Part shown: positions 1 through 30,985 of the stretch, piece after piece
Numbering within the stretch: the stretch's first letter is position 1
Layout of the letters: each line of letters opens with the position of its first letter
Virus record (IMG/VR): IMGVR_UViG_3300020411_000002
From: a virus
Taxonomy: Duplodnaviria; Caudoviricetes
Strand: one strand, 5' to 3'
DNA length: 64,000 nucleotides
The notes under the pieces: generated by a model
What the model was told of the DNA's origin: nothing
What the model saw: the letters and a program-made list of their open reading frames with translations, nothing else
Database searches by the model: none
Program-made: the position numbers and the translations under genes

Positions 1-2428
1 AATAAGCAGTATAAGTATTTAAAACAGCCTCAGCGATACGGTCGTTAAGAACACTATCTTCTCCCGTAGTATATTCACTGAACGTTTCAAAGCTAGCAGA
101 CGATACAACGCTAGGTGCAGTAGTTAAGATACCATTGTACCCTGCTTCTGCTGTCGGTGCATTACCAGACTGCTGTGCCGATTCTCCTAGTATACGAACT
201 ACTGTAACTTTCAAATCTTCAATGTGACTTGGAACAGTTCCGATAGTACTATTCCACGTTGAGCCTTCTTCGGCAGTTACTTCATCTACTTCAATTGTAG
301 TAGTATTAGCTTCGCTTTCTTTCGGGTGGTTGTCGCTTGCAGAGCTGTATGTATAGAACATAGTTGTAGTAGGATATCCATCTGTGGCATCAGTTATGTA
401 CAGAATACTTACTTTCTTTTGAGTGGTAGGCACGTTGTCTAAAACATATCTAACGTAAGAAGTAAACATGGATACGGATGCAAACTCACCACCTATAATT
501 GCATTACTTGGTATTGAGAAGTCATTTAGTATCTGAATTATAGTATCGTCACGAGTTTGTTCAGGTGTCCCATTTAAAGTAATATCACTACCATTCGAAG
601 TAGAGCCTGACATATCTCGGAAGATATATACTTGAAAGCTTTCGCCCTCACTAGCTAACTCAACTTCCGTAACATCAGGAGTATTATCGACTATTGTAGC
701 AATGCCCTCCCTTTTGCCTATAGTTCCGATACTAGGATTAGAAATAATAAGCTTGAATGTTTCGTCATGCTCTGGAACGTCATCACACTTGATAACGATA
801 TCCACCTGCTTAGATGTATCGCCTTCATCAAATGTTACTGTACCTGTTGCTGCCGTAAAGTCGCTACCAGAAGTAGCAGTTATTCCAGTTGTCGAATACT
901 CTACGGTACGACTATCTCCTATGACTGCTTCACTCGAAGTAATGGTGAACGTAGCTGTAGTATCTGTATCAGAAGCACTACACTCGGCAACGTTGATATC
1001 ATTAACAGAGAATTCAGTTCCGTTATTTACAACTACGCAAGGCATTTCAAAGGTTAGTATTGCATCGTCTGAATCTTCTACGCCTGCTGTAGAGTAATCT
1101 AAATCAGATACTGTGACGTTAACTGTGTAAGGTATCAACTGTCTAGCATCTTCTTCCTTAATAGTGCGAGTAAGTTTGAATATGCCTATACGTCCACCTT
1201 GTTCAACACCTTTAAGTGTTAGTTCTCTGGAAGGACTAGACCATACATACTTATATCGTCTAAGTTGCCAGTCAGGTGGATCAACAAATCTAACTTCAAC
1301 TTTGACTTCTGAAACAAACGTATCGCCTACGTTCAAACATCTATCTTCACATGGAATAATCGGGTCTGGTTCTGGTGGCGGTGGCGGTGGTGGCTCAGGT
1401 GGTTCTGGCTCTGAATACTCTTCTACTGGAACTTTCTTGAAGATTTCTAACCATTGACCTCCTCTTGGGCGCACCGACCAGTACAAAGAAAAAGAACTTC
1501 CTACTACTTCCATCCAGTGATCAGTACCAACTTGATGTGCAAAGCCAGCTCCGTTAGATAACAAAGGCATAAGCTTTTCAGAAAGTATCATGTGACCTTG
1601 TTGGCAAAGCTCATTAGTTTTGTACGTATCAAGAGTAGAGAACATGTATTCACCATCTACAGGCATAGATGCTTTTGATACTGACATTGTGTTAAGAGGA
1701 CCTGAGCCCTTAGATACAGATTTAAACGTGTTATAAAAACCTTTGTCCAAATCGTAGTTCATAGGTCTTCTATAGATTCTATAGATTTTGTGGCTACTTA
1801 CTCTGAACTTAGTTTGTGTCGTTTCTGTAGTTCCAGAAAGATTTATCCAGTCATCCCATCCACTACGGCCCCAGTACTTTATCATTCTATTGCTAAAGTA
1901 CTTAGTTTGCGTATATGCACTTCCGAAGTTATAGAAGATTGTGCCGCTATAATATCTTTCTTGGCTAGACTGATTACATTCTACTACAAACAAATACTCA
2001 TAGTCTTTTTCAAAGTTAGTGATAGTAAGAGTCTTGCCTTGTGTTGTATACCAAAGCTCAAACTCGGCAGTATTATCGGCAGGGTCTAATAGAGAAGTAT
2101 CTGGAACTAAGTTTCTTTCACTTATTCTAACTATTCCACTACCGTCCTTACTTCTGACGAGTCTAAATCTCTTTGTTCCACTTGTAGTTATTTCAGCCGT
2201 AGCTAAGTGGTCAATACCTCCACTAGCTCTCCAACCAATAGTACCACTTGTAGGCTTTTGGAGATCCATATCAGGAGGTATATTTATAAATGTATGACCT
2301 ACTTCATCGTCTTTACTTAGTTCGCGTACTTGTATGCAGTACTCTTTATTCGGGGCCCACTCATAATTAAATGTTTGGACACCCGATGGGTTGTAAAATA
2401 TCTCAACCCACGGGTTCACTTGTGCCAT
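1..2428 (-). CDS. Large putative fibre/adhesin protein (runs off the left edge) with a Pro-rich hinge, a Calx-beta domain and a vWA-like domain
   Basis: Not in the ORF track. I translated it by hand: ATG at 2428, 2 nt after the stop of 2431..6534, open to base 1 (>800 aa). Contains EPEPPEPPPPPPPEPDP, Calx-beta-type TATSGSDFTAATGTVTFDEGDTSKQVDIVIKCDDVPEHDETFKLIISNPS, MIDAS-like IFRDMSGS and later VSILYITDATDG. Confidence 0.8.
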   Translation of the reverse strand, partial: MAQVNPWVEIFYNPSGVQTFNYEWAPNKEYCIQVRELSKDDEVGHTFINIPPDMDLQKPTSGTIGWRASGGIDHLATAEITTSGTKRFRLVRSKDGSGIVRISERNLVPDTSLLDPADNTAEFELWYTTQGKTLTITNFEKDYEYLFVVECNQSSQERYYSGTIFYNFGSAYTQTKYFSNRMIKYWGRSGWDDWINLSGTTETTQTKFRVSSHKIYRIYRRPMNYDLDKGFYNTFKSVSKGSGPLNTMSVSKASMPVDGEYMFSTLDTYKTNELCQQGHMILSEKLMPLLSNGAGFAHQVGTDHWMEVVGSSFSLYWSVRPRGGQWLEIFKKVPVEEYSEPEPPEPPPPPPPEPDPIIPCEDRCLNVGDTFVSEVKVEVRFVDPPDWQLRRYKYVWSSPSRELTLKGVEQGGRIGIFKLTRTIKEEDARQLIPYTVNVTVSDLDYSTAGVEDSDDAILTFEMPCVVVNNGTEFSVNDINVAECSASDTDTTATFTITSSEAVIGDSRTVEYSTTGITATSGSDFTAATGTVTFDEGDTSKQVDIVIKCDDVPEHDETFKLIISNPSIGTIGKREGIATIVDNTPDVTEVELASEGESFQVYIFRDMSGSTSNGSDITLNGTPEQTRDDTIIQILNDFSIPSNAIIGGEFASVSMFTSYVRYVLDNVPTTQKKVSILYITDATDGYPTTTMFYTYSSASDNHPKESEANTTTIEVDEVTAEEGSTWNSTIGTVPSHIEDLKVTVVRILGESAQQSGNAPTAEAGYNGILTTAPSVVSSASFETFSEYTTGEDSVLNDRIAEAVLNTYTAY

Positions 2429-2430
2429 AC

Positions 2431-5400
2431 TTATACCTTTCGATTGACTGTATCTACGTTGTGTACTAGGAAAGGATTTCTACCAACGTAGTAAGAATCA
2501 CTTTCTTCAACGTCTATACAGACTACATCAATCGGATCATCTACGCGTGTTAAAGAACCTACAAGAACTTCTTCTTTGTCTCCATAACAAGAAAGAAGTA
2601 CATCGCCTACTTTCATATCCCTAACGTCCATCCACTGCCAAGTGTCATCGCGTTTAACAAAGATAAGGTGTTCTTGGGTTATTTCAACATCACCATTAAT
2701 AATCCAATATTCTCTAAACCAATCGTGTTTGATTGCTCGAATTGTACTAACTACAGGATAACGTCCGTTTATGTCTTTAGTAGTCCAGTCTTCCCAACCA
2801 TCTACGTTTTCATCAATCATATTAGGAATGAATTCACTAACGAGTCGGTCACCTACTTTAAGTCTTTCTGCGTTAATAGATTTTCCATCTTCTAGCACGA
2901 CCATCGTACCAAAAGATATACAACCACCACCGCCACCACCTGAATAAACTTGTGCTTTCTGCTGTAAGCTTACTTCAATAGGTGCAGACTTTTGTACGTT
3001 ACCCAAGTCGTCTTTAACAAATATCTCTACTGTTAAATTGGCAATTCCTGCTAAACTTGAATTAGAAACCGCACGTTCAAACTGAATACTCATGCACTGA
3101 TTATTAGCGCCGTAGTTTGAAACACTATTAGGTACATCGGCTGTTTCTTTAGATTCATCAAAAGCACAATACGGCTTTATCGATACGCGAGACCCTGGGA
3201 TTGAATTGTTAACTGTAACAACGTTCCACTTATAGGTGTAAGAACGCGCTGGGTCAAATTCAAATTCCGCTAATAGTCTGCTAGTCCAATTAGTGCCTGC
3301 TGCTTTGTCGTCAACTCCACTTGTAGCGCTGTCCGCAGTTTTAGACATAGTAAAGCAAGCTACCTTTCCATTGTCTTGTGCATACTGAGGAACACCGTCA
3401 CCTAAGTCACCGTCAGTGCCCCAATCCATATCCAACTTATTAGAGTTAATCTTGAAAGCTAGAATAGTTTCAGGGTGTGCGTACTTAGTTGCAGTAACTT
3501 TTGCAGTACCAGTACTTCTAAGAGTTCCAGTATATACAATGTTCATATCTCCTTGAACAGGGGCAGATGATTCTACAATAGTAGCAATGCCTTCATCTTG
3601 AATGATAGCACCAACGCTTGCATCGTAGATGATAACTTTAAACTGTTCATTCGGGTCACGTTCACTATCAGCAAAAGTATTAATGCTAATAGTACCACTG
3701 CCTGCACCTGCTGGAATAGTAAGACTTCCAGATTTAGATTGATAATCTGCATTTGATGTAGGAGTAGACGGGCTTCCATCTGAACCAGTATTAGCTAGCG
3801 TAAAGTTTGTCATACGCTTAACACCGCTCTGGTTTTCGAAAGAACTAGACCCAGACAAGTCTTCAAACAGATAGCTGTCACCTGCTTTGTCTTTTATTTG
3901 CTGAACAGAAACACTACGCGCACCAGACGGGCTAGATACGGTAGAGTCAGACGCTGGAATATCTACCAAGCTCTTAATGTTGAAAGAGTTGATAAGGTCT
4001 TTAGCGTGAGCGTTAGCAAATCTGTAGTAGTTGCCTGCGGTACTTATATCAAATGCTGCTGCACTGATCACTACCATAGGCTTAGAACCTTTAGCTGCTC
4101 TCGCTACTGCAACACCAAACGCTGTACCTTGTTCAAGATTAAACATCTTGTTCAAGAAGTGATTAGAAGTATCTACTCCTGCGTTTTCTTTAGCGTGGTG
4201 TCTCCATTCTCCAAACTGGTCAGATACAATAATGTCATAGTTACCTACTACGTTTTTAGGTGAACTATAAGTTGCATCTTGGTACGAGTAGCTACCTTGC
4301 TTGACAGTTCCATGTGCATCAAACTCATTGACTACGTGAACATCAACCTGAATACCGTAAATGTTTGCCAGTGACTTAGTGAAGAAGTCCATAACAGTAG
4401 ACATTTGGTAAACGATTTCATATTCACGCTCATTTACTCTTGGATCAGGGTCATAGGGTGTAGAGTAAGATTGAATACGCTGGTGGGTTACTACCAATAG
4501 CTTTTTACCAGATAAAGAACCAAGACGGTGCTTTAACATATTAACAATCATCTTTTGGTAATCGTTAAGTTCTTCGAATGTAGAAACGCTACGGTCAACA
4601 TCCCTATTTGCATCAGTTCCATTGTATGCAGTAACTGTCTCTAGATAGTTTTCAACATCGTAAAGTCTGTGTGGGTCTGCTTCTAACATTAACGTATAGC
4701 CGTCAGTATCGTTAGAGTAAACAACTGTAGAAACATGATTACTATCTCTGAATAACGGATATGGATTAACTTCACCTGCTGCAACGGCTTCGCTGCTAGC
4801 AGTCATATCTTCCGTTCTATAGTTCAAAGACAAGTCTTCATTGATTGGATAGTTAAGACCTACTGTAAATTTAGCTGTAGAGCCTTCCGCTACTGTAATA
4901 CTATTAATAGCTATTTGAACATCAGGACAATTTGGAACTTCCTGATCATCAATCTCTACATCTAAGAGAGGAATATAACAGCCAACCCAATAAGCCCAAC
5001 TACTGTCAATAGGGCAATCGATACGTACACTGATTTCTCGCAAGTCATCGTAGTCCGCACTTTCTTCTAGTCTAAACCACTGTAAGAAAGTTGTACCTCT
5101 GCTTCGTTTAGCAGTTACTAACTTTCCTTTCTTGTTGAATACGCTAGCTGTATACGTAAAGTCTCCATAACCAGTAACTTTAATTGAAGCTACGCCGTTA
5201 TCGAGGTCGTTCATTAAGTAGTGGTCTTCTGTACTGTGGTGTCCAGCACTGTTTATGCCTGACTCTGGTACTTCACAAGGCCAACGATTCTCTTTGTACC
5301 CGCGAGTATTTGGATCATAAAGCATGTACTCTTGCGAAAGCACATCTGACCCGTACTCCCGTTGACTTGCCATTACTTTAACTACGATATCAGGAACAGC

Positions 5401-6534
5401 GTTTGCAAATCTCCAAGGGTCAAACACAATAGACAAAAGCCCATCTGTGTCTTTATTTCCCATAGTTGAAGCAATACGTTCACCGCCATGATAGACTTCA
5501 ACCCAGTCTGCATTTTCCCAAGTCTCGTAGTTAAGATGAAGAACATAAGGGCCTGTAGCAGGGTCAACTAGTCCAACTGTGTGAACGTACTCTACCCAAT
5601 ATTGTCCATCTGTGATTCTGTTCTCAAATGGAGTTACACGGCTATGAGCAGGTGCTGGAAACAAGCTAGTACCAATATACTCAGTAGTACGAATTTGTGC
5701 TAAATGTCTATTGTTGCCCGGCTCAAAGTCTTGAAGCGTAAGAAACGATTTAGGACCTATAGCAGAATACATCCATCTGCATTTGTCTTCACCACGAACA
5801 CGAATCATTACTCTATCTTCACCAGAACCGATTGCAGGGTCTAGACCGAACTCTAGTTTTCCTCTACCAGTAACTCTGCCGCATGTGGAAGCAATTAAAG
5901 CACCAAGATAATATACGTCAATAGAGATACCTTGTTCGTGGTAGCAAGCGTAAAGAATTTCAAAGATACCACCTCTATCACCTAACTCATAAATAGTTTC
6001 AGTTATTGCACTACCATTAGAGAAAGTATGCGTAGACAGGTAACTAGGATTCTCGTAACTTCCTCTACCAAGAAAAGAGTTAGTGCCCGGATTAGTATAA
6101 GTTTCTTTTGTGTTTTCAATTCCGGGTCTGTTAATTACTTGACCTTCATAAGTACCATAAGCACGTTCTAGACCAAAGCCTGCTTGACCTGCATCTGGTA
6201 AGTCGTAACCTTCTGGATATCCACGTAGTATGTCAAATTCGTTTCCACCACTACCGCTACCATCACCAGAACCTGCTTCTGTAATAGGAATAGAGTTAGA
6301 ACAAGTAAGAGAAGTAAGCATAGCTAGGTTAGCACAAGGGTCATCTAGCACATCGTCAAAAGTACAGTCCACCTGCATCCAAGTGTTGTTTCCGCTATCT
6401 CTTACTTGCGTTTGGTCTGGATAGAAACGAATCCACGTACTATTAAAGCCGTCGCGAAAATAGAACTCGCTGCTGCATTGGTCGAGCCAACCGTTATCTT
6501 GTGCATTACGAACTGTTAGTCTTGTAGTTGTCAT
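2431..6534 (-). CDS. 1367-aa multidomain tail fibre/adhesin: tandem beta-sandwich repeats, interrupted Calx-beta domain, C-terminal Hint domain
   Basis: Calx-beta halves INSITVAEGSTAKFTVGLNYP...RTEDMTA and ADYQSKSGSLTIPAGAGSGTISINTFADSERDPNEQFKV. C-terminus GGGGGG-CISFGTMV...ITQEH...IDVEESDSYY...LVHN-VDTVNRKV has Hint blocks A, B, F and G. Confidence 0.8.
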   Translation of the reverse strand: MTTTRLTVRNAQDNGWLDQCSSEFYFRDGFNSTWIRFYPDQTQVRDSGNNTWMQVDCTFDDVLDDPCANLAMLTSLTCSNSIPITEAGSGDGSGSGGNEFDILRGYPEGYDLPDAGQAGFGLERAYGTYEGQVINRPGIENTKETYTNPGTNSFLGRGSYENPSYLSTHTFSNGSAITETIYELGDRGGIFEILYACYHEQGISIDVYYLGALIASTCGRVTGRGKLEFGLDPAIGSGEDRVMIRVRGEDKCRWMYSAIGPKSFLTLQDFEPGNNRHLAQIRTTEYIGTSLFPAPAHSRVTPFENRITDGQYWVEYVHTVGLVDPATGPYVLHLNYETWENADWVEVYHGGERIASTMGNKDTDGLLSIVFDPWRFANAVPDIVVKVMASQREYGSDVLSQEYMLYDPNTRGYKENRWPCEVPESGINSAGHHSTEDHYLMNDLDNGVASIKVTGYGDFTYTASVFNKKGKLVTAKRSRGTTFLQWFRLEESADYDDLREISVRIDCPIDSSWAYWVGCYIPLLDVEIDDQEVPNCPDVQIAINSITVAEGSTAKFTVGLNYPINEDLSLNYRTEDMTASSEAVAAGEVNPYPLFRDSNHVSTVVYSNDTDGYTLMLEADPHRLYDVENYLETVTAYNGTDANRDVDRSVSTFEELNDYQKMIVNMLKHRLGSLSGKKLLVVTHQRIQSYSTPYDPDPRVNEREYEIVYQMSTVMDFFTKSLANIYGIQVDVHVVNEFDAHGTVKQGSYSYQDATYSSPKNVVGNYDIIVSDQFGEWRHHAKENAGVDTSNHFLNKMFNLEQGTAFGVAVARAAKGSKPMVVISAAAFDISTAGNYYRFANAHAKDLINSFNIKSLVDIPASDSTVSSPSGARSVSVQQIKDKAGDSYLFEDLSGSSSFENQSGVKRMTNFTLANTGSDGSPSTPTSNADYQSKSGSLTIPAGAGSGTISINTFADSERDPNEQFKVIIYDASVGAIIQDEGIATIVESSAPVQGDMNIVYTGTLRSTGTAKVTATKYAHPETILAFKINSNKLDMDWGTDGDLGDGVPQYAQDNGKVACFTMSKTADSATSGVDDKAAGTNWTSRLLAEFEFDPARSYTYKWNVVTVNNSIPGSRVSIKPYCAFDESKETADVPNSVSNYGANNQCMSIQFERAVSNSSLAGIANLTVEIFVKDDLGNVQKSAPIEVSLQQKAQVYSGGGGGGCISFGTMVVLEDGKSINAERLKVGDRLVSEFIPNMIDENVDGWEDWTTKDINGRYPVVSTIRAIKHDWFREYWIINGDVEITQEHLIFVKRDDTWQWMDVRDMKVGDVLLSCYGDKEEVLVGSLTRVDDPIDVVCIDVEESDSYYVGRNPFLVHNVDTVNRKV

Positions 6535-6543
6535 AGCACTACC

Positions 6544-7038
6544 TTAGCGAGGTTTAATCCATAAAGCACCAGCACCAACAGGACCTGGGTCTTCTGTAGT
6601 TATATAGATACTTACTTTACCATCTAATCCATGTTCGCCTTGAGGTCCAGTAGCACCAATAGGTCCCTGCTCCCCTTGCTTTCCTTGCGCACCACGAACA
6701 CCACGTTCTCCAACTGGGCCACGAGGACCTCTACATCCACGTTCACCACGCAATCCATTTTCACCAAGAAGTCCATTAATACCAGCGTTACCAGAAACAC
6801 CTTGAGGCCCTTCTTTACCAGTACCAACATCACTTTGAGTCATAAAGTTATTGATACGTAGAACAGGATAGCCTGGGATGCTTAGCGTAAGAGTACCAGA
6901 CGTATTATCGTAGTAACCTTCTAACGTGTCTGCTACTTCATCATCTGTTACAATAGACAAACCTCTACCAGAAGATTCTACATTACCTACAGTAGAACCA
7001 CCACTAATCATGTTCAAGTTAGCTTTTGTAATAGCCAT
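6544..7038 (-). CDS. Collagen-like fibre chain C (about 22 Gly-X-Y triplets)
   Basis: Uninterrupted GXY run GKEGPQ...GLDGK; N- and C-flanking domains are paralogous to 7051..7686 and 8150..9661. Confidence 0.85.
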   Translation of the reverse strand: MAITKANLNMISGGSTVGNVESSGRGLSIVTDDEVADTLEGYYDNTSGTLTLSIPGYPVLRINNFMTQSDVGTGKEGPQGVSGNAGINGLLGENGLRGERGCRGPRGPVGERGVRGAQGKQGEQGPIGATGPQGEHGLDGKVSIYITTEDPGPVGAGALWIKPR

Positions 7039-7050
7039 AATAAGTCTCTC

Positions 7051-7686
7051 TTAAAATTGGTCTAAGTCATCATCGTACTGACCGATATCTGGATTTACCC
7101 AAATAGAGCCAGGTCCTATGCTAGAGCCAGGGTCTGTACTACTAATAACTATGTTGATGTTTCCAGCAGGGCCTTGCTCTCCACGTGGGCCAGTAGGACC
7201 TGTAGCACCAGTAGGTCCAGTTGGGCCTACATCACCACGCTCACCTTTCTTTCCTTGCAGTCCACGTGGGCCCATAGGTCCAGCACATCCAGCAGGACCT
7301 GGAAGTCCAACTTGTCCATCACGACCATTCTGTCCATCTTCACCACGAGGGCCTGTAGGTCCAATAGGTCCAATACAGCCTTCGTCACCAACTTCTCCAT
7401 CTTTACCATCGCGTCCATCACGACCATCTTCGCCAGCTTCTCCTTGAGGACCTTGCTGACCCTGAGGAATGCTATCGAATGTAGGAAAGCCAGTAATAGC
7501 AATCTCATTACCGCTAGCAAATGTTAGAGTAAGAATGCCGCTTCCTTGGTCATAAAATCCAGCTTCGATTTCGCTGGTGGTGTCAACTGCTTCGCTAGAC
7601 GTAGCAAGCTTTCCGTTTTTGACAACTACACTACTGCCTTCGTCACCTGATGACCGTACCATAGTTACAGGAATTTTTGTAAGCAT
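7051..7686 (-). CDS. Collagen-like fibre chain B (about 33 Gly-X-Y triplets)
   Basis: Uninterrupted GXY run GQQGPQ...GPAGNI; same flanking motifs as the other two chains. Confidence 0.85.
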   Translation of the reverse strand: MLTKIPVTMVRSSGDEGSSVVVKNGKLATSSEAVDTTSEIEAGFYDQGSGILTLTFASGNEIAITGFPTFDSIPQGQQGPQGEAGEDGRDGRDGKDGEVGDEGCIGPIGPTGPRGEDGQNGRDGQVGLPGPAGCAGPMGPRGLQGKKGERGDVGPTGPTGATGPTGPRGEQGPAGNINIVISSTDPGSSIGPGSIWVNPDIGQYDDDLDQF

Positions 7687-7688
7687 AA

Positions 7689-8150
7689 TTAAACCCTGTT
7701 ATGTACTAAAATGCCATTTAGAAAATATGTATCACACATATCAACCTTTAGCTCGAATGTTTGTACACTAACTTCTATAAAAGAAATTGTCTCTACTTGA
7801 AATTGCGTAGAGTGTCCAAACATAACATCACCTTTTTGAATTTGTGGAGGCTTTTTCCATTCCCAAAAATCATTACGCTTGATTAAAATGGGTTGGTCGG
7901 CTACAAAGTGCATCAAGTTTATTTTATAGTATCCACTACGTATAAATATTTCGCGGTCTATAACAGTGCCTTCAATAACTTTTCCTTGAACGTCTTTTGT
8001 AGCCCATTCCATAGCGAACTCTTGATTACCAAATCTAGAACTAGGCATAGCACCTATTCTTAATGCAGTAATCTGATCGCCTACGAATACATCTTGTGTA
8101 TTCTTACTTTTAAGAGTATCTGTTCCTGTAGTAATCCTTTGCTTAATCAT
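7689..8150 (-). CDS. Stand-alone, catalytically degenerate Hint-domain protein
   Basis: Aligns by eye along its whole length with the Hint domain of 8150..9661 (VFVGDQI, YYKIN, PILIKRNDFWEW, IQKGD, DTYFLNGILVHN). No Cys1; the block-B His is replaced by Gln. TAATG stop/start overlap with the upstream gene. Confidence 0.8.
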   Translation of the reverse strand: MIKQRITTGTDTLKSKNTQDVFVGDQITALRIGAMPSSRFGNQEFAMEWATKDVQGKVIEGTVIDREIFIRSGYYKINLMHFVADQPILIKRNDFWEWKKPPQIQKGDVMFGHSTQFQVETISFIEVSVQTFELKVDMCDTYFLNGILVHNRV

Positions 8151-9661
8151 TAGTGCTTAACCGTTTGTGTTGTGTTATGGACAACAATAGGCTCATGTCC
8201 GGCAAAGTAGTTATCGTATGGTTCAACGTCTAGTACGACAACATTGAGATTTTCTTTAACTTGATCGATAGACTTGATTTCAATAACTCCATCTGTACCT
8301 TTAAGAAAGTCACCAACTTTAATGTCAGTCGCATCATACCAACCCCACTGCTGATTCTTTCTAACTAGAACAGGGTGGTCTTGGGTAATACATACGTCAT
8401 TGTTAATCTTCCAATACTGAGTGTAGCTAGCATTGTAAGCAACTCGCGCTGTAGTAGGTACAATCTTCGGATTCTTGAACTCTGTAGTCTTCCAATCTTT
8501 CCAATTTCTTTCGTCTTCGTCTAGCATTCCTGTCGAAGTAAAGGACTGTAGAGTATCGCCTACTTTAACATATTTAGCTCGTTTAGTACTTCCATCCCAC
8601 ATAAGAATTGGAGTATCTTCGTGTACACAACCACCGCCACCAACTATGATAGGACCTCCAGGCTCAGTCTCTTCACTATTATCTCTGCTGTTGTAACCTG
8701 AGAAAGAGAAGCGAATATTCTTGATAGACAAACGTTTATTGTTATCGCCTCTATCTGTAATAACGAGTTCCATCTTACCAGAAAAGCTATAGCTTTGTTG
8801 AGGTTGAATAGTACGTAATGCAGCAATCTTTAGTGAACGTGACGTAGTAGAACCGTCAATAGAAATTCCAGCTTCACGCATACTGTTATCAGTATCGACC
8901 CACTTGTAACTGAAAGGACCTATTCCACCTTCAAAGTTCGTTAATGAAAGAATAGCGTTACCGCCGTAAGAATCATCAGTAACGTGAGCTAGTCTAACAC
9001 TAACATCTGTTACTTGTCCTGACATTGGATCAGCTTCTACTATCGGTGAGGGAAGAGAAGTGCCACTAGGTCGCGCCCAAAGAAAGTAGTTTGAGTCTGG
9101 TGCGTTCTCTCCATAGTATACTGTTTCCGCTGGTTTGATTCCTTGTATACCACGTTCACCAACTATACAGCTAGGCCCAGCAGGTCCAACAGGTCCCATG
9201 TTACCAACGTCACCATCTTCACCAGTGTCTCCACGCAATCCAATAGGACCGGGACACCCCATATATCCAGTAACACCAGTTTCACCATCATTACCATCTA
9301 GACCTTTATTGCCAGCTTCACCAGTAGGTCCAATCGGTCCTTCGCATCCAGTCTTTCCTTTCTTACCATCACGACCAATTCTACCATCACGACCTTTCTT
9401 GCCAGCAGGGCCTTTATCTCCACGAGGACCTTCACCCATCTGACCGAGCGTTAAGAATCCAGACACCTCTACAACTTCACCATTATGTCTGACAAAGTTG
9501 AGTGTGCCTGTTCTCTTGTTGAATCCGATTTGTGCAATAGCTCTTTCGCTAACAGGTTGTTCTGAACTGTATGCTAAACTTTTTAGGGAATCAGTCTTTA
9601 AACTAGTTCCCTCTTTATTCTTGCTAGGTACAAGACTTTTAATGTTAGCTTCTTGTGCCAT
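8150..9661 (-). CDS. Collagen-like fibre chain A with a beta-sandwich domain and a C-terminal Hint domain
   Basis: About 33 GXY triplets, then a globular domain, then GGGG-CVHEDTPI...ITQDHP...LDVEPYDNYF...VVHN-TTQTVKH. Confidence 0.85.
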   Translation of the reverse strand: MAQEANIKSLVPSKNKEGTSLKTDSLKSLAYSSEQPVSERAIAQIGFNKRTGTLNFVRHNGEVVEVSGFLTLGQMGEGPRGDKGPAGKKGRDGRIGRDGKKGKTGCEGPIGPTGEAGNKGLDGNDGETGVTGYMGCPGPIGLRGDTGEDGDVGNMGPVGPAGPSCIVGERGIQGIKPAETVYYGENAPDSNYFLWARPSGTSLPSPIVEADPMSGQVTDVSVRLAHVTDDSYGGNAILSLTNFEGGIGPFSYKWVDTDNSMREAGISIDGSTTSRSLKIAALRTIQPQQSYSFSGKMELVITDRGDNNKRLSIKNIRFSFSGYNSRDNSEETEPGGPIIVGGGGCVHEDTPILMWDGSTKRAKYVKVGDTLQSFTSTGMLDEDERNWKDWKTTEFKNPKIVPTTARVAYNASYTQYWKINNDVCITQDHPVLVRKNQQWGWYDATDIKVGDFLKGTDGVIEIKSIDQVKENLNVVVLDVEPYDNYFAGHEPIVVHNTTQTVKH

Positions 9662-9664
9662 ACG

Positions 9665-12091
9665 TTACCCCAAATTAGGCGATACATCGACTACCAAGTT
9701 AATCGTTAGTGCTGAACCATAATCACTTACGCGACCGTTACGTACACGCATTTTAGCAACTATCTCAATAGCACCAGTTGGGTTATTAGCTTTCAATACG
9801 TTCCAGCTTTGAGTAATTGATTTATCTGCATAGGCATACGTGCCTTGCTGTTCTGGATTAGTTACATTGAAACCACTGCTACCAGTACCTTTAATGTTTC
9901 TACCATATTCAGGTTCGTTAAGGCTGTGCGTTCTAAATCCAAGAACAAATTCAATGTTCTCTAATCCATTAGCTGACGTAAAGCCGGGACCTAGTCTAGC
10001 ATTGAAGTCTGCTGTAGCTTTAACAATAACATCACCTTTAAAGTTCACACGTTGAGTATAGATAATCTCTTCCGCGTTAACTATTCTGTGTTGGTTATTG
10101 AACACAACAGGTTTGTCTTTTGCTATTTGCTGACTTAGTTTAGATTCAATCGTGTACTCAGGAAAAGTACCAGAAACTTTAATACCCGTTCCACCTATCA
10201 TATTGAATCGAGGAACTGGAATACGTAAAGGTTCTAAGTTGTGACGTACAAGCTCAATACTCTTAGACGTTACTAACGCATCAGTAACAACACCTTGGAT
10301 ACTGCTATCAGGATTGCCTTGGCTTAGTACGTTTCTGAATATCTGAACTTCGATTTCTTGATTCGCATCAATGTCTCTGCGGAAAATCAAACGGTCATCT
10401 ACAATATCGTACAAGCTACGATTAGCGTGAAGACCTTGTTCAGAAACAAACACTAGACCCTTATCTTGGGGACTGAATGGTAGTTGAAGAACACGCGTCA
10501 GGTCTTTAGTGACATAGTTCTGAGTGTGAACATGAGTTGCATACCCACGAACTTCTTGTGTAATGAACGCATTGATTTCTACAAGTAACCCTTGTGCAGG
10601 TGCAGTAGTGAAAACAATCTTTTGATTATCTTCATCGATAACGTAGTTGTTTATGCTCTGCAAGAAAGGGTCTACGTATACCAGACACTGACTAGAACTA
10701 GTTATCTTTTCTTCACCTACTACAGGGATATCGAATTCAGTTTGATTACCATCTGCAATGTATTCTGCATAACGAATATTTAGCAAAGCACCTGTACTTG
10801 GAGTAAGCGTAAACAAACGCGCATCAATTTGGGTTTCACTAGGTAAGTCTTCTGAGAATTCAATTGCGTTTTCTGTAATCTCAAAAGCTTCTCTGTGTTG
10901 TGTGACGCCGCCAAGTGCTACCATTGCATAGTTGTTATTCTTAGCATGGCTGTAGTAATGAATTTGGGCTTTCTGACTCTGTACTTGCGACAAATCTTTT
11001 TGATAGAGAACAAATGTACGAGAACCTGCTGCGTCCTCTGGCTCTGTTACATAAGCACTCATTTTTAATGTGCCGGGCGGGTGGTACAACGTACTACCAT
11101 TACCAGAAGCTTTTAGTGGAGGCACCCAACGTGGACTAGTAACCCCACGCTCTAATACATAGTTAGACGGTACTTCTTCGTTTAACCAACTTAATGACGT
11201 AGCGCCGTAGTTGCCTGAACGTGGATACCAGATTGAAATAACGCTGGTATCTGATAGCGCACTAAATCCAGTTCCTTTAGCAATGTATGCAATGTTATCA
11301 CCGTTCTGAGTAGCATCGAAGATACGAGTCTCACCAGCCCCAGGTCCTTGAATAACTTGCACTACAACTACATCGCCAGCTTGTACGTTACCAAGTTCGC
11401 TAGCATCAGGCTGTTTGAATTCCGTTTCGTCGTAAACGTTTTCGTATCCAACTTCACCGTTAAAGATTCTAGTATATCCAGAGAAGCCCCAATGTGCGCC
11501 TCCAGGTCCGAACTTCTGAGCAATGCCGGGTACTGCGTTTCCATCTAGCGACCATTCAAGTGTCTGTACACCAACTGCATTTGCAATAGCACTAACAGGG
11601 CTAGGTAAGTCTTCAACTGTAGGTACAGATGGGATAGAACCAAACTCAGATAACGTTACATCAATAGTGCCTGCTTCTACTTCGCTAATGTGCAGCATAG
11701 CTTCAATGCGAATTGATTCGGCAGACGACTTAACGTAAGGCTCAGAATAAACACAATGACCTAGCACTGTGTTGTCTTCTAATAAAACAACTAGCTCACC
11801 AATAGTGATAGAGCTAGTTGCGTTTGCATCAGGTATACCTTGTGGAATATCTAATGTGAATCTAACTGTATTTTCTGACAATACTTGTACGTAAGAAATG
11901 TTACCTGTATAGACAGTGTTGCTTACGAGGTTGTCTGGGATACCACCCTCTTGTTCGTAGAAGTCTTCAACGTCTGATACTTCTAAATCACCTAGCTTGA
12001 ATGCTTTAGGGGCGACACGAATGCCACCCGCATCTGCATTAAGAAGTGATTGACGACCTGCTTCTGTTAAGTGAATTATGTTTGGTGTCAT
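9665..12091 (-). CDS. Baseplate-anchored tail fibre/attachment protein (808 aa)
   Basis: N-terminal IHLTEAGRQSLLNA...FKLGD resembles tail-collar/fibre-attachment domains. Three internal repeats of the type DGxxTxF...LVxV...Q...Y.I....I.F...P..G..V.I. Confidence 0.6.
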   Translation of the reverse strand: MTPNIIHLTEAGRQSLLNADAGGIRVAPKAFKLGDLEVSDVEDFYEQEGGIPDNLVSNTVYTGNISYVQVLSENTVRFTLDIPQGIPDANATSSITIGELVVLLEDNTVLGHCVYSEPYVKSSAESIRIEAMLHISEVEAGTIDVTLSEFGSIPSVPTVEDLPSPVSAIANAVGVQTLEWSLDGNAVPGIAQKFGPGGAHWGFSGYTRIFNGEVGYENVYDETEFKQPDASELGNVQAGDVVVVQVIQGPGAGETRIFDATQNGDNIAYIAKGTGFSALSDTSVISIWYPRSGNYGATSLSWLNEEVPSNYVLERGVTSPRWVPPLKASGNGSTLYHPPGTLKMSAYVTEPEDAAGSRTFVLYQKDLSQVQSQKAQIHYYSHAKNNNYAMVALGGVTQHREAFEITENAIEFSEDLPSETQIDARLFTLTPSTGALLNIRYAEYIADGNQTEFDIPVVGEEKITSSSQCLVYVDPFLQSINNYVIDEDNQKIVFTTAPAQGLLVEINAFITQEVRGYATHVHTQNYVTKDLTRVLQLPFSPQDKGLVFVSEQGLHANRSLYDIVDDRLIFRRDIDANQEIEVQIFRNVLSQGNPDSSIQGVVTDALVTSKSIELVRHNLEPLRIPVPRFNMIGGTGIKVSGTFPEYTIESKLSQQIAKDKPVVFNNQHRIVNAEEIIYTQRVNFKGDVIVKATADFNARLGPGFTSANGLENIEFVLGFRTHSLNEPEYGRNIKGTGSSGFNVTNPEQQGTYAYADKSITQSWNVLKANNPTGAIEIVAKMRVRNGRVSDYGSALTINLVVDVSPNLG

Positions 12092-12127
12092 TATAAAACT
12101 TCCATTAATGTTTCTATAAAATTATAG

Positions 12128-15100
12128 TTATTCTGGTATATACCTTACAGAGAACTTGCCTCGACTAAAACCTCTAGCCGTTGTTCTATACAGATACCAA
12201 GCTTCATCTAAGTCGGTTTCATAGACGCGCGTAACAGTAATAGGTTCTTGCCATTCGCCAAACAATGATGTGTCACTATTTGGTTCTGGAATGTACGTAA
12301 ACTCTGCTCGACCCAGTGCTTTAGGGTGTGCGAAGTATCCATACTCGTCTGCATCTGGATTGATTTCAAACGTACCACCTGTTCTACTAGCCTGCTTTTC
12401 GAACTCACCCAAGTTATCATTGAAGCGAACAGAATTGTTAACACCATCTAAGTATGTTCCGAATAGTGGAAAGCTGGAATACACTTTGATAGTCTTCTTG
12501 TCCGTAAAACTAGGATAGTCTTTGGCTTTGATAGAGATTTCTATTTCTTTGTTTTCAACGATTGGAGAGATAGACAAAACGTTTTCGTCAAACTCTGCGT
12601 CAGGTTCATTGTAGTTAAAGAAAAAGAAAGCACTGTCTGAAACATCAAGAGTATCAGGACCTTGTGAAGTAGAACCAGTCATGATAGCACCAAGTTCATA
12701 TTCACCTGCATCTATAATAGCAGTCTGTACAGTTTGAGGCAGTGTTAAGGTTATATCCGTAGGAGTAAACTGCATAAGCAACGTATACTCAAAATCTTCT
12801 GAGATAGTTCTTAACCCTTCTTTCGCTGTAGCACGTAGTACCATTACTGTGTTGTTCGTTAACTTGGGAATCTTAAAGCCTTTAGTTTCGGCATCATACG
12901 AAATACCAATAGGTCCGCTTACTACATACCATGTTACCATAGCATTTGGGTCAGTAACGTATGTTCCATCACGCCTTTGAATTCTAACAGTAGGAACAAA
13001 GATTGAATCAGGGTCATCATAAACAACTGTTTGACCCGACTGCTCGATTACATCTATTGCTTTAGAGCTTTCAATGATGAAACGTAATGAGCTAGCAACT
13101 GTTTCAACTCTATCTTGGGCAGCAGCAGGGTTACCTGCATCTACTGCGTCTGTGCTTCTAGCGAATTCCTCAGTGTACACACCGTTAATAATAACTTGCG
13201 TATCTGTTTCGACAGGATTAACAAGAAGTCCAATTACGTTTCTACTAGGCTGAGTAAGGCTTACTTTGTTACTCGATGTTTCTAGCGACCACTCAACAAC
13301 TTCTGGATCGTAGAAATTACCTAATTCATCGTTACGCTCGACCTTTGCTTTAAATCGATAGAACAGTTTACCGCTTGTAGGGTCAATGTCTGCAAAGCTA
13401 TCGGGATTGCCGGGCAATACTGCTACATCAGGAAGACGAATAATCTCACCAGCACCAGTTGCATCTGACGGTGTTGTGTTACTGCTACGTTCAAACTGAC
13501 CATCGTTAGTAATGTTGTACATGTACATGCCTGTAAGAATAGCATTAGTACTTTTCATGAAAACATCTAACTGTTCAGTAAACTGCGTAATGCCGTCATC
13601 ATAGTCGGCGTATACCAAAAGCTGCGCATTGATATTGATACGAGGATACAAGTAACCTTCGTTATCTATTTCAGCAATTTGAATTGACTGGAAAACCTCT
13701 GATAACTGTTCTTCATCTAATTCACTAACTTCATAGATACTCAAATCATCATGAGTAGGCAACAATGAACGGTAGCTTTCATTTACTGCAAGTAAAGCAG
13801 TTAGTACTTCCGCTTTGTTAACTACATCTACACGCCAATCACTCGATACCATGTAGGTGTCACCAAGGTCATCGTAATCAACAACTAATCCATACGAGAA
13901 GTCTAGCGTGTTGTCTGCGTAAATCTCACCAGGTCCTTCAATACGCGAATTCAGAATCTTATCGATTGCTTGAACAGGGTTAGCATTGCTAGTGATAGTC
14001 ACTGATTCTACTTGTTGGAAATATCGTGCAGTTACTTTGAAGCTTTGCTGCTCTCCGTCAAGTAAGGTTCTTGTTTGAATCACTGCGCGTGGATATTCAG
14101 TTTCAGGGTCATTGTCGATAATGTTCTTAACTGCTTGCGTCCAATCTGCTTGAACCTCTTCTGCTAGAACTTTAAAGAACAACTCACCGTCAATTAGTCT
14201 ATCTACTTGTGCTTGCGTTAGTTCGTTACTGTCTAACCAAACTCGGTCTACACCTATAAGTGCTTTAACTATTCCCTCAATCGTAAACTGACCTTGTGTT
14301 AAGTCTGCTTCAATTTCTTGATCGATAAAGCTAGGCTCAATACTCCATGTAGCGTTTGCTTGTTCTTGTTCACCATTCGCATAAGTAACAATAGCAGTCA
14401 AGAATGTACGCGTACCCTCAGGCATGTTTTCGGCGTAAATAATCTCCAAGTCTTCTGTTAAGAAAATCTTAGGTGTTACGCTGATAGAGGTAGCATAAGT
14501 AGAGTAAGGAACTTCCGTTAAGTCAAGTTCTTCATCAGTTAGGACAACGCCCTCTTCTGGAACGTCTAACGGGTTTATATAGTAGATGTATATATCCACC
14601 AGCCCTTTAATCTGTTCGAAGTTTGTTTCTTCTGTATCGCTTAGATATTCAATAAGAAACTGCGGGTGGTCTAGGCTTTCATCGATAGCATTGAACTGAT
14701 CGTCAGATAGAGAAAGAATAACAGGCACGTTGTCTTCATGTTCTAACTCGTATCCAGAATCAAGACGAACGTACTTAGATAAAACCCTGTCACCTTGTTT
14801 TAGTTCGACACGATACGGAATAATCTGAGTATTGCTATTGTCATTCCAATCAACATAGAAGCGAACTCGATTAGTGTTACCTTGAGAAAGTGATTGAGGC
14901 ATAAGGGCTTCAATACTGTTTACTTCTCTACGTAATGCTTTGACTTCTACTGTTTTTGAAGTTGCTAACTTAACAATACTTTCGTTGTCGTCCTCGTCGT
15001 AACGGTACACATCAATGATTGCATTCACGCTTACATTGATTGCGTCATCGTCTACACTAGGTGCAGTCATTAAACCAGAGTCAGATATTTCTGTGCTAAC

Positions 15101-18393: not shown

Positions 18394-18890
18394 AGTCGCT
18401 TCAATCCAAATTCTATGTTTTCAAAAGTTAGCCCAAGTCTAGGTATCTCTATAGCGATAGAAACAAAGTAATTGCCGTTGTCTACATCTGGTAGAACTTC
18501 AACGTTGCGCACATTAACTCTGCCGTCCCCTATTCTACTTCCAGTAAGACCAGTAATGATAGTGCTACGAATAGCGTTAGCAGTTACTGTATCTAAAGGT
18601 TGAAATAGGAGTCGTTCTAAGTCTACACCAAACTCAGGTCTAAACCATCTTGTTCTTTTGCTTACACCTAGTATCATCATGATACTTTGCACAACGCTTT
18701 CTCTGTCGCGCACTTCTGTTTGAGAAGTTTTATTCATTTGAAGGTTTACGTCTGAGAATAAAAAGTTGCGCTGGGCAGTTCTGTGGGTATCAACTATATT
18801 ATCTCTTTGAGCTATAGCTGTATTGTTGGTAGGGATTTCTTGTGCTGTGTGTCTTTCGTAATAAGAAAGATTGATAGGAGAACGTGCCAT
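18390..18890 (-). CDS. Baseplate wedge subunit, T4 gp25 / gpW-like
   Basis: FSDVN...DRESVVQSIMMIL...RWFRPEFGVDLERLLFQPLD, typical of the gp25 family. Confidence 0.85.
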   Translation of the reverse strand: MARSPINLSYYERHTAQEIPTNNTAIAQRDNIVDTHRTAQRNFLFSDVNLQMNKTSQTEVRDRESVVQSIMMILGVSKRTRWFRPEFGVDLERLLFQPLDTVTANAIRSTIITGLTGSRIGDGRVNVRNVEVLPDVDNGNYFVSIAIEIPRLGLTFENIEFGLKRL

Positions 18891-19174
18891 TAACCACCTG
18901 CCTTTACATTAGAGCTTCCTTGTCCTGCTGTGTCTCCACAAGTAAGCTTCTTTCCTGTAGTATGAATACCTTTACCATTAACTTTAACAGTCGATGAACC
19001 TAATGCTGCGCCTTGGTGACAACTGCTAGATATACAATGGACGGCGTACTTATCGCCTTGACGCACAACACCAATACCATTAGCTTTGACGTTGCTGCTT
19101 GCTTGGATGGATGGAACAGGCGGATAGCCGTGACCTACACTCTTATCTCCAAGTCTCATAACTGAACTACCCAT
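18890..19174 (-). CDS. PAAR-domain spike tip protein (T4 gp5.4-like)
   Basis: MRLGDKSVGH...VKANGIGVVRQGD..AVHC...CH...VKVNGKGI..TG.KLTCGD. Start moved to the ATG at 19174 because AGGAG lies 6 nt upstream. Confidence 0.85.
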   Translation of the reverse strand: MGSSVMRLGDKSVGHGYPPVPSIQASSNVKANGIGVVRQGDKYAVHCISSSCHQGAALGSSTVKVNGKGIHTTGKKLTCGDTAGQGSSNVKAGG

Positions 19175-19262
19175 AAGTACTCCTGCACTCAGTAATTTTA
19201 TAAAACTGTAAATACCACGTAATAATAGTAAATTAGCAAATTGCAAATCAAGGGGTTGCTCC

Positions 19263-30948: not shown

Positions 30949-30985
30949 ACTGTACAAACCATTAAGTAAATCAATTCGGAGCGTC

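What the first reader, a model, noticed from the sequence alone, without database searches (positions are those of the whole stretch)
2431..9661. Candidate new system: tail-fibre operon built around Hint (intein-like) autoprocessing domains preceded by poly-glycine
Seen: two fibre proteins end in about 150-aa Hint domains, at 2458-2922 (GGGGGG|CISF...TQEH...VHN) and 8174-8629 (GGGG|CVHE...TQDH...VHN). Both have Cys1, block-B TxxH and block-G His-Asn, no homing endonuclease, and only 7-8 residues after the Asn. A third, stand-alone Hint gene is in the same operon. Established: a Cys1/TxxH Hint domain makes an N-S acyl shift, leaving a thioester on the preceding residue. Hedgehog uses this to ligate cholesterol; bacterial intein-like domains use it for cleavage. 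Inference: these Hints either act as self-removing folding chaperones (a counterpart of peptidase-S74 intramolecular chaperones) or activate a Gly-Gly C-terminus, as in ubiquitin, for covalent ligation to another virion protein or a small nucleophile. The second option would be an enzyme-free fibre-stapling system.
Basis: partly seen in the sequence, partly recalled or inferred. Interest (0 to 1): 0.9.

Follow-up and report, generated by a model that had tools for sequence, protein, structure and literature searches.

The report
Self-processing Hint caps on phage fibres
Two tail-fibre proteins of a marine giant phage end in small intein-like (Hint) domains that probably cut themselves off behind a glycine linker, perhaps re-attaching a tiny lysine-bearing tail, while a third, catalytically dead copy is encoded as its own gene; the module is widespread in phages but nothing about it has been tested.

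Summary
P0001 (2431-6534, minus strand) and P0002 (8150-9661) end in 155- and 152-aa Hint domains with a Gly-run|Cys1, TxxH and His-Asn, followed by 8- and 7-aa tails. P0003 (7689-8150) is a stand-alone Hint. AlphaFold models (pLDDT 91-93) match Tetrahymena BUBL BIL2 and the Clostridium thermocellum BIL domain best.

The domains fit type-A bacterial intein-like (BIL) domains. They are not inteins, Hedgehog or S74 chaperones.

- 66 of 67 independent C-terminal family members carry a Lys in the short tail (14-19 expected).
- In tandem-Hint relatives the junction is usually HN-K-(G)n-C.
- Dickeya phage JA11 has an orthologue of the Hint-bearing fibre that stops 6-7 residues before the Gly|Cys junction, so the Hint is an add-on.
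- P0003 has lost Cys1 and block B, yet it is conserved in about five marine lineages with dN/dS 0.06.

Best reading: self-removal at Gly|Cys, probably resolved through the tail lysine as in BUBL. No processing has been shown.

GenBank records for phages NCTB and Y3 already note an "intein domain". This scan found the same Gly-Hint-Lys module at least seven times on other DNA. I found no paper on it.

The parts
8150..9661 (-). P0002, 503 aa. Order of parts: N-terminal fibre domain, collagen triple-helix repeats (about residues 77-165), Ig-like distal domain, Gly linker, Hint, 7-aa tail.
   Evidence: Pfam Collagen 4.9e-15. Full-length match to phrog_38766 'virion structural protein' at 2.1e-68.
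8630..8659 (-). Flexible linker GGPIIVGGGG (residues 335-344), ending in Gly(-1).
   Evidence: AF2 pLDDT is 53-74 over this stretch. Gly is at -1 in 43 of 61 family members.
8174..8629 (-). Hint domain of P0002. Cys345 is residue 1. Block B is T426..H429, block F is LDVE..D.YF, and the domain ends at H495-N496.
   Evidence: dN/dS is 0.055 against a near relative.
8153..8173 (-). Tail TTQTVKH with a single Lys (K502). The proposed role as acyl acceptor is inferred.
   Evidence: AF2 pLDDT is 47, meaning flexible.
7689..8150 (-). P0003, a 153-aa stand-alone Hint paralogue. It has no Cys1 (Arg5 sits at that position) and block B is VADQ instead of TxxH. HN is kept, and the tail is RV. The N-terminus M-x-K-Q is invariant.
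   Evidence: dN/dS is 0.057. The start overlaps the P0002 stop as TAATG.
7051..7686 (-). P0004, a 211-aa collagen-like fibre protein without a Hint.
6544..7038 (-). P0005, a 164-aa collagen-like fibre protein without a Hint.
2431..6534 (-). P0001, 1367 aa. Order of parts: phrog_26008 N-terminal region, Calx-beta-type beta-sandwich domains, Gly6, Hint, 8-aa tail.
   Evidence: Five orthologous lineages of 1367-1387 aa all keep the Hint.
2923..2940 (-). GGGGGG run (residues 1199-1204) immediately before Cys1.
   Evidence: The run is conserved in all four P0001-type orthologues.
2458..2922 (-). Hint domain of P0001. Cys1205 is residue 1. Block B is T1286..H1289, and the domain ends at H1358-N1359.
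2434..2457 (-). Tail VDTVNRKV with a single Lys (K1366).
9665..19264 (-). Upstream genes of the same minus-strand baseplate/fibre module: PAAR-like (18890-19264), gp25-like (18390-18890), then proteins of 487, 1600 and 808 aa.
   Evidence: The same order is found in NCTB, in Tara contigs and in the enterobacterial relatives.
2..2428 (-). Downstream Calx-beta protein. It runs off the window and at least 809 aa are visible.
   Evidence: Calx-beta 1.5e-14.

Best explanation
The window is part of a marine jumbo myophage of the NCTB / 'hairy Myoviridae' lineage. Two proteins of its baseplate-fibre module carry a type-A bacterial-intein-like (BIL) Hint domain at the extreme C-terminus, on a flexible glycine linker.

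Proposed mechanism:
1. Cys1, helped by block-B Thr/His, converts the Gly-Cys peptide bond into a thioester.
2. The thioester is then resolved so that the Hint leaves the fibre. The mature fibre is therefore the part before the Hint.
3. The invariant His-Asn and the near-universal single lysine in the short flexible tail suggest how step 2 happens. It is probably not plain hydrolysis. Instead, Asn cyclisation frees the tail and an amine of the tail (the Lys) captures the glycyl thioester. This is how type-A BILs and BUBL BIL2 work.
4. The fibre would then end in Gly joined to a 7-8-residue peptide, and the Hint would be discarded.

The stand-alone P0003 cannot make a thioester. It is a conserved non-catalytic paralogue whose role is unknown.

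What is shown: the fold, the catalytic residues and their conservation, the Lys signature, and the dispensability of the Hint in a related phage. What is inferred: that cleavage occurs, the route through Lys, and the fate of the Hint.
For: Fold and family:
- Profile hits to 2lwy (2.7e-14), BIL2 (1.2e-12) and Rhs PT-HINT.
- AF2 pLDDT 91; Foldseek tops are BIL2 at E 5e-9 (TM 0.77 by target) and 2lwy (TM 0.81).

Conservation:
- Cys1, TxxH and HN are present in all window, NCTB, Tara, Erwinia, Yersinia and Y3 orthologues.
- They are present in 61 of 61 complete metagenomic C-terminal members.
- dN/dS is 0.055 for the Hint.

Lys signature:
- 66 of 67 tails carry Lys, against 14-19 expected. None of 200,000 simulations reached that number, even at a Lys frequency of 0.12.
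- Tails hold 67 Lys against 9 Arg.
- HN is followed by K at +1 in 91 of 170 domains of tandem relatives. The commonest linkers there are K, KG, KGG and KGGG before the next Cys.
- The tail and the linker are predicted flexible.

Precedents:
- Type-A BIL: an amine of the freed C-fragment attacks the thioester (PMC4031507).
- BUBL BIL2 forms a Lys epsilon-NH2 to C-terminus isopeptide after a Gly-Gly (PMC8616854, section 2.4).

Natural experiment:
- JA11_096 is 48-50% identical to the Hint-bearing orthologues over its whole 324 aa. It stops 6-7 residues before the G|C junction.
- JA11 has no fibre Hint anywhere in its genome.
Against: - There is no experimental or proteomic evidence of cleavage for any member. 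I could not reach virion mass-spectrometry data for Y3, AD1 or the Alexandraviruses.
- RefSeq calls the orthologue a 'virion structural protein', which says nothing about processing.
- The Lys position varies from +1 to +10.
- The dead stand-alone clade, which cannot form a thioester, still keeps HN followed by K or R. HN and Lys may therefore have a role other than resolving a cis thioester.
- A spliced product could simply be encoded directly, so the selective advantage of the detour is unexplained.
Confidence: 0.6

Rival explanations
1. Plain self-cleaving assembly aid. The Hint acts as a transient C-terminal chaperone or assembly checkpoint, a functional counterpart of the peptidase-S74 intramolecular chaperone. 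It is released by simple hydrolysis of the thioester. HN and Lys would be conserved for folding or rate reasons only.
For: - The domain sits at the extreme C-terminus of many unrelated fibre-like proteins: collagen, Calx-beta, Flg_new, fn3 and Laminin_G.
- The catalytic N-terminal residues are conserved.
- There is an analogy with S74 domains of jumbo phages (PMC7824862).
Against: - The Hint is separated from the fibre body by a flexible Gly linker with low pLDDT. This makes it a poor registration nucleus.
- JA11 builds the orthologous fibre without it.
- Hydrolysis alone needs neither the invariant HN nor a Lys-specific tail (67 K against 9 R).
- Hint domains are normally monomeric.
Confidence: 0.2
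2. Intermolecular ligation ('fibre stapling'). The glycyl thioester is passed to a lysine or other nucleophile of another molecule. Candidates are another virion protein, the stand-alone P0003 (invariant Lys3, and Lys or Arg at +1), or a host surface molecule.
For: - BUBL BIL2 conjugates its Gly-Gly-ended N-extein to different substrates without ATP (PMC8616854).
- Unhindered Gly at -1 is typical of acyl-transfer systems.
- P0003 is conserved, translationally coupled to P0002 and under purifying selection. Its N-terminal M-x-K-Q is invariant.
Against: - The conserved Lys is in cis, on the Hint's own tail.
- The enterobacterial relatives have one Hint fibre and no P0003.
- No acceptor motif was identified.
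- The P0002-Hint plus P0003 complex prediction gave no verdict, which is evidence neither way.
Confidence: 0.12
3. Retained distal domain. The Hint is not removed. It stays on the fibre as a structural or receptor-binding tip, possibly a latent or conditional 'fuse', and P0003 is a free copy with the same binding role.
For: - The existence of a conserved, non-catalytic stand-alone Hint shows that the fold has some use beyond N-terminal catalysis.
- A family-specific Trp-rich insert (GM.DE....W..W) is conserved in catalytic and dead copies alike.
- dN/dS of the Hint equals that of the fibre body.
Against: - A purely structural domain would not keep Cys1, TxxH, block-F Asp and HN in every fused member while the free copy loses exactly the N-terminal set.
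- JA11 lacks the domain altogether.
Confidence: 0.08
4. Ordinary selfish mini-inteins that happened to insert near the ends of fibre genes.
For: P0002 has Thr at +1. Real inteins exist elsewhere in related genomes (PMC7412058; weak matches).
Against: - The +1 residue is not conserved in orthologues: T, T, A, K for the P0002 type and V, A, T, L for the P0001 type. Across the family it is A 17, K 7, V 6 and so on.
- The 'C-extein' is only 1-18 residues.
- There is no homing endonuclease.
- The host proteins are hypervariable, not conserved.
- Hint clades are orthologous and vertically kept in about five lineages.
Confidence: 0.01

Closest known systems
Type-A bacterial intein-like (BIL) domains (Amitai 2003; Dassa 2004; C. 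thermocellum BIL, PDB 2lwy), including the Pfam PT-HINT domain of polymorphic toxins
   Same: - Mini Hint fold.
- Cys1, block-B TxxH and C-terminal His-Asn.
- No conserved +1 nucleophile and no endonuclease.
- Found in variable surface or secreted proteins.
- Best sequence hit (2.7e-14) and TM 0.81.
- 59 of 67 family members have sub-threshold PT-HINT matches.
   Different: - The domain sits at the extreme C-terminus with only 1-18 residues after Asn. There is no toxin or other domain downstream.
- A Gly-rich linker precedes it and a single conserved Lys follows it.
- It has a family-specific Trp-rich insert.
- The hosts are phage fibre proteins.
- Scores fall below every Pfam and NCBIfam curated cut-off.
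BIL2 of the Tetrahymena thermophila BUBL1 polyubiquitin-like locus (PDB 6y75 / 6tmm; Chiarini et al. 2021, as described in PMC8616854)
   Same: - Best structural match (Foldseek E 5e-9) and second-best sequence match (1.2e-12).
- The N-extein ends in Gly-Gly before Cys1.
- The chemistry ends in a Lys epsilon-amine to C-terminal-Gly isopeptide, without ATP.
   Different: - The exteins there are ubiquitin-like domains and the acceptor Lys lies on a folded domain or another protein.
- Here the N-extein is a fibre and the only conserved Lys is on a 7-8-residue tail.
- No isopeptide has been shown here.
Hedgehog / Hog autoprocessing domain (PDB 1at0)
   Same: Gly|Cys cleavage site, Hint fold (Foldseek E 1.5e-5), and a thioester resolved by a non-peptide-backbone nucleophile.
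   Different: Hedgehog lacks the terminal His-Asn and needs a sterol-recognition region of about 60-70 aa after the Hint. Here HN is invariant and only 7-8 residues follow.
Peptidase S74 intramolecular chaperone domains of phage tailspikes and fibres (Schulz 2010)
   Same: A C-terminal, self-releasing module on phage fibre proteins. This is similarity of function only.
   Different: S74 has an unrelated fold and chemistry (Ser-Lys dyad). It is trimeric and directly contiguous with the stalk it folds. No S74 match was found here.

Membership tests
Hint superfamily (Hedgehog/intein fold) | Hint beta-fold of about 130-160 residues | tested here: met
   AF2 pLDDT 91.2 (P0002 Hint) and 92.9 (P0003). 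The top 50 Foldseek PDB hits are all BIL, intein or Hedgehog domains.
Type-A BIL domain | N-terminal Cys/Ser nucleophile plus block-B TxxH | tested here: met
   P0001 has C1205 and T1286..H1289. P0002 has C345 and T426..H429. Both features are conserved in the family. P0003 does not meet this feature: it has Arg and VADQ.
Type-A BIL domain | C-terminal His-Asn (block G) | tested here: met
   HN is invariant in alignment A3 of 67 sequences and in all three window copies.
Type-A BIL domain | No conserved +1 Cys/Ser/Thr; located in variable, non-essential surface or secreted proteins | tested here: met
   +1 residue counts are A17, K7, V6, T5, S5 and so on. The N-terminal parts are collagen, Calx-beta, Flg_new, fn3 and CARDB.
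Type-A BIL domain | Demonstrated auto-cleavage or splicing activity | not testable with these tools
   Needs expression and mass spectrometry. No published data were found.
Canonical intein | Conserved +1 nucleophile and a substantial C-extein that is ligated to restore a conserved host protein | tested here: not met
   The C-extein is 7-8 aa here and 1-18 aa in the family. The +1 residue varies between orthologues.
Canonical intein | Homing endonuclease, or evidence of mobility into a conserved site | tested here: not met
   The domains are 152-155 aa with no insert of endonuclease size. The three clades are inherited vertically.
Hedgehog/Hog autoprocessing | Sterol/adduct-recognition region after the Hint; no terminal HN | tested here: not met
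   Only 7-8 residues follow the Hint, and HN is present.
PT-HINT of polymorphic toxins | Hint followed by a C-terminal toxin domain | tested here: not met
   There is no domain after the Hint. Pfam PT-HINT scores 23.7 bits, under the cut-off of 27.7.
BUBL-type BIL | Gly-Gly|Cys junction with a Lys acceptor giving an isopeptide | tested here: inconclusive
   The junction and the conserved Lys are present and BIL2 is the best structural match. There are no ubiquitin-like exteins, and the product has not been observed.
Peptidase S74 intramolecular chaperone | S74 fold with a Ser-Lys dyad | tested here: not met
   No Pfam or PHROG S74 match. The fold is Hint.

The most novel reading that the evidence does not exclude
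The terminal Hints are not just self-cutters. They would be an ATP-independent protein-ligation device of phage virions. The glycyl thioester would be handed to a lysine to make a Gly-Lys isopeptide. That lysine could lie on the domain's own tail (self-capping of the fibre end), on the dead stand-alone Hint P0003, or on another virion or host protein. This would be a viral counterpart of BUBL-type, enzyme-free ubiquitin-like conjugation. The K-(G)n linkers of tandem-Hint relatives would then be a related peptide-processing array.
Probability: 0.3. Interest if true: 0.85.

Novelty: new variant of a known kind. Interest (0 to 1): 0.62.

Why it matters
Phage fibre maturation is known to use S74 chaperone domains and separate chaperones. 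A widespread Hint-based C-terminal module would be a third route that has not been studied. If the lysine route holds, it would be a natural example of enzyme-free protein ligation outside eukaryotic BUBL loci.

The family is large. The profile found 20,905 proteins at E <= 0.001, which include Hint domains of other kinds. Dozens of independent viral clusters carry the domain at the C-terminus.

It is directly testable. Orthologues exist in cultured Erwinia, Dickeya and Yersinia phages, and JA11 provides a natural Hint-less control.

Small, fast-acting Gly|Cys...HN-Lys Hints could also be useful protein-engineering tools.

The three-copy operon here adds a conserved pseudo-Hint whose role is open.

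Tried and rejected
- Complex prediction of the P0002 Hint with P0003 gave no verdict (score 0.00). It is not evidence either way.
With P0003 alone it found only one near-identical IMG/VR fragment.
- The window's own assembly is not held.
- Ten literature searches and several full-text look-ups found no paper on Hint-terminated phage fibres. The Y3 paper is not held, so no virion proteomics could be checked.
- Six apparent 'stand-alone' Hints among the metagenomic hits (P0010, P0043, P0090 and others) begin at internal Met residues of the LM.DG motif. They are probably truncated gene calls, not true free copies.
- I considered using P0003's missing Lys (tail RV) as an internal control for 'no thioester, no Lys'. 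I rejected this because three orthologous lineages keep Lys at +1.
- An earlier first-reader note says Met1 of P0003 replaces Cys1 exactly. This does not hold generally. Orthologue N-termini differ in length (22-25 residues to the GD motif). The HMM alignment and the AF2 strand positions put Arg5 at the Cys1 position, with M-x-K-Q as a 4-residue stub.
- A search for Hint-less orthologues of P0001 found none; all five lineages keep the Hint.


Full report
**1. What is there**

All genes of interest lie on the minus strand in one module. The order is:
- PAAR-like (18890-19264)
- gp25-like baseplate wedge (18390-18890)
- proteins of 487, 1600 and 808 aa
- P0002 (8150-9661)
- P0003 (7689-8150)
- two collagen-like proteins, P0004 (7051-7686) and P0005 (6544-7038)
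- the 1367-aa P0001 (2431-6534)
- a further Calx-beta protein that runs off the window

P0002 consists of an N-terminal fibre domain, collagen repeats, an Ig-like distal domain, the linker GGPIIVGGGG, a 152-aa Hint (Cys345 to Asn496) and the tail TTQTVKH. P0001 consists of a phrog_26008 region, beta-sandwich domains, GGGGGG, a 155-aa Hint (Cys1205 to Asn1359) and the tail VDTVNRKV. P0003 is a 153-aa free-standing Hint whose start overlaps the P0002 stop as TAATG. A six-frame profile scan finds only these three Hints in the window.

**2. Are they really Hint domains?**

Pfam and NCBIfam see them only below their curated cut-offs: PT-HINT 23.7 against 27.7, Intein_splicing 29.8 against 35.8, and nothing for P0003.

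Family profiles are unambiguous against solved structures:
- C. thermocellum BIL 2lwy: 2.7e-14
- Tetrahymena BUBL BIL2 6tmm/6y75: 1.2e-12
- an Rhs PT-HINT 8w20: 3.9e-9
- then inteins

AlphaFold2 with a 67-sequence alignment gives pLDDT 91.2 and pTM 0.86 for P0002 residues 330-503. P0003 gives 92.9 and 0.89. Foldseek against the PDB returns BIL2 (E 5e-9), 2lwy (TM 0.81 by target), many mini-inteins and Hedgehog 1at0 for both models. Confidence is low only for the Gly linker (pLDDT 53-74) and the tail (47), so both are predicted to be flexible.

**3. Which phage, and who else has it**

The nearest cultured or deposited relatives are:
- Phage NCTB (LT598654, about 48-52% aa identity, same gene order, genes annotated 'contains intein domain')
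- Erwinia Alexandravirus, Yoloswagvirus and Sasquatchvirus Y3 (whose gp110 note reads 'contains intein domain')
- Dickeya AD1
- Yersinia fHe-Yen9-02

This is the 'Lupandier' / 'hairy Myoviridae' group (PMC7412058, PMC6143709). Tara Oceans contigs L005 and L008 carry the identical three-Hint operon. The enterobacterial phages have only one Hint-bearing fibre and no free Hint.

A maximum-likelihood tree shows three separate orthologous clades: P0001-type, P0002-type and free-standing. Each contains the window, NCTB and both Tara lineages. The two catalytic clades are not sisters, and the free clade sits on a very long branch. P0001-type proteins are found in five lineages of 1367-1387 aa, and all keep the Hint.

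**4. The wider family**

A profile search of 1.84 billion representatives gave 20,905 hits at E <= 0.001. Among the best 150, 77 have a single high-scoring Hint at the extreme C-terminus. The rest are tandem-Hint proteins.

I set aside the window's own proteins, fragments lacking HN, and long-tailed members. That leaves 67 independent members (50% identity or less). Their features:
- All 61 complete ones have Cys1.
- TxxH and HN are near-invariant.
- Gly is at -1 in 43 of 61, and Gly dominates positions -1 to -5.
- The +1 residue is not a conserved nucleophile (A17, K7, V6, T5...).
- Tails are 1-18 residues long.

The striking feature is lysine. 66 of 67 tails contain Lys, almost always exactly one (67 Lys against 9 Arg in 452 residues). 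From composition, 14-19 tails with Lys are expected. Random windows of the same length give a mean of 15.6 and a maximum of 27. Even at a Lys frequency of 0.12, none of 200,000 simulations reached 66. Seven of the eight one-residue tails are 'K'.

In the tandem-Hint relatives the residue after HN is Lys in 91 of 170 domains. The commonest inter-domain linkers are K, KG, KGG, KGGG and KGGGG, directly followed by the next Cys1. 'G|C ... HN-K' is therefore a signature of the whole clade, not only of the terminal copies.

The N-terminal parts of the terminal members are diverse adhesin or fibre modules: collagen, Flg_new, fn3, CARDB and Laminin_G. ESM Atlas structural neighbours (TM 0.88-0.90) are almost all Uroviricota.

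**5. A natural experiment**

Dickeya phage JA11 belongs to the same phage group and has the same gene order. At the position of the Hint-bearing fibre it encodes JA11_096, 324 aa. This protein aligns at 48-50% identity with the Erwinia, Yersinia and Y3 orthologues over its entire length. It ends (...ARNPK) 6-7 residues before their Gly|Cys junction. A profile scan of the whole JA11 genome finds no fibre Hint, only a weak intein-like N-terminal match elsewhere.

The part before the Hint is therefore a complete, functional fibre protein in a close relative. This is what one expects if the Hint is a removable accessory. It argues against the Hint being an indispensable folding nucleus or the receptor-binding tip.

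**6. The stand-alone Hint**

Orthologues of P0003 exist only in this marine lineage, in about five clusters on contigs up to 257 kb.
- All lack Cys1.
- All have lost block-B Thr and His (V/T/K/L..Q/Y).
- In the window copy the block-F Asp is replaced (LKV in place of LDV).
- All keep LVHN followed by Lys or Arg and 1-2 more residues.
- All have an invariant N-terminal M-x-K-Q and an invariant MP[SC]SR[FL]GN insert.

dN/dS against a 98%-identical relative is 0.057. That equals the P0002 Hint (0.055) and the P0002 fibre body (0.059). P0003 is thus a selected, folded, N-terminally dead Hint. Its function is unknown.

Two points matter for interpretation. First, the Hint fold has some use that does not need a thioester. 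Second, HN plus a basic residue is retained without Cys1, so these residues may do more than resolve a cis thioester.

**7. Mechanism**

Established chemistry:
- A Cys1/TxxH Hint performs an N-S acyl shift.
- His-Asn supports Asn cyclisation.
- Type-A BILs lack the +1 nucleophile. They ligate when an amine of the freed C-fragment attacks the thioester, with cleavage products dominating (PMC4031507).
- BUBL BIL2, which follows a Gly-Gly, makes a Lys epsilon-amine to C-terminus isopeptide without ATP (PMC8616854).

Inference for this locus:
- The Hints detach from the fibres at Gly|Cys (about 0.7).
- The detachment goes through the tail lysine, leaving a short peptide on the terminal Gly (about 0.35).
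- Alternatives are plain hydrolysis, transfer to another protein, and retention as a structural tip. These are listed as rivals.
- The flexible linker and the JA11 orthologue weaken the S74-like chaperone idea. The cis location of the Lys weakens intermolecular stapling.

**8. Known or new**

The domain's presence is already noted in two GenBank records. This scan reported the same Gly-Hint-Lys cap on at least seven other genomes. First-reader notes on this genome already flagged the pseudo-Hint.

I found no publication describing or testing it, including a 2025 tail-fibre structure atlas and a jumbo-phage comparative survey that discusses S74.

It is best classed as a new variant of a known kind: a type-A BIL or BUBL-like Hint in a new, phage-specific architecture. 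This locus adds several things to the earlier notes:
- the three-clade operon with a conserved dead paralogue
- the JA11 Hint-less orthologue
- the HN-K-(G)n-C signature in tandem relatives
- cultured-phage orthologues for direct tests

Noticed in passing
window 8492-8641 (start of the P0002 Hint): Compared with the near-identical IMG/VR relative L010, this 150-nt stretch has 24 mismatches. The rest of the 4.4-kb comparison has 0-6 per 150 nt. The changes are mostly synonymous (dS 0.39 in the Hint against 0.065 in the fibre body). It looks like a recombination or gene-conversion patch inside the Hint.
   Followed up: partly
metagenomic proteins P0009, P0013, P0024, P0031, P0035, P0046 and others (one search hits): Many relatives are arrays of 2-10 tandem Hints joined by linkers K, KG, KGG or KGGG (HN-K-Gn-C). 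If both ends are processed, each linker would be released as, or cyclised into, a tiny Lys-Gly peptide. Their biology is unknown.
   Followed up: partly
window 6544-9661 (P0002, P0004, P0005): Three collagen-like paralogues share the same N-terminal domain of about 70 aa and a post-collagen motif (..P....W..P). Whether they form homotrimers or a heterotrimer was not examined.
   Followed up: no
L013 (Dickeya phage JA11) record position 130716-130829; L002 record (pEa_SNUABM_16) position 30927-31037: Weak partial Hint matches lie inside long open frames elsewhere in these genomes. One covers only the N-terminal splicing region and the other only the C-terminal one. They are probably genuine inteins in replication or packaging genes, as reported for terminases of this phage group.
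   Followed up: no
window 2-2428 and 2431-6534: Two consecutive giant Calx-beta proteins follow the collagen fibres. The NCTB orthologue of the second is annotated as 'aggregation factor core protein MAFp3'. In this 'hairy Myoviridae' group the proteins forming the tail hairs are still unknown (PMC6143709), and these are candidates.
   Followed up: no
catalytic and dead Hints, for example P0002 residues about 388-402 and P0003 residues 35-50: A family-specific insert between blocks A and B is absent from 2lwy and BIL2. It reads GM.DE....W..W in the catalytic copies and MP.SRFGN....W in the dead copies. It is conserved in both kinds and could be a docking surface.
   Followed up: no
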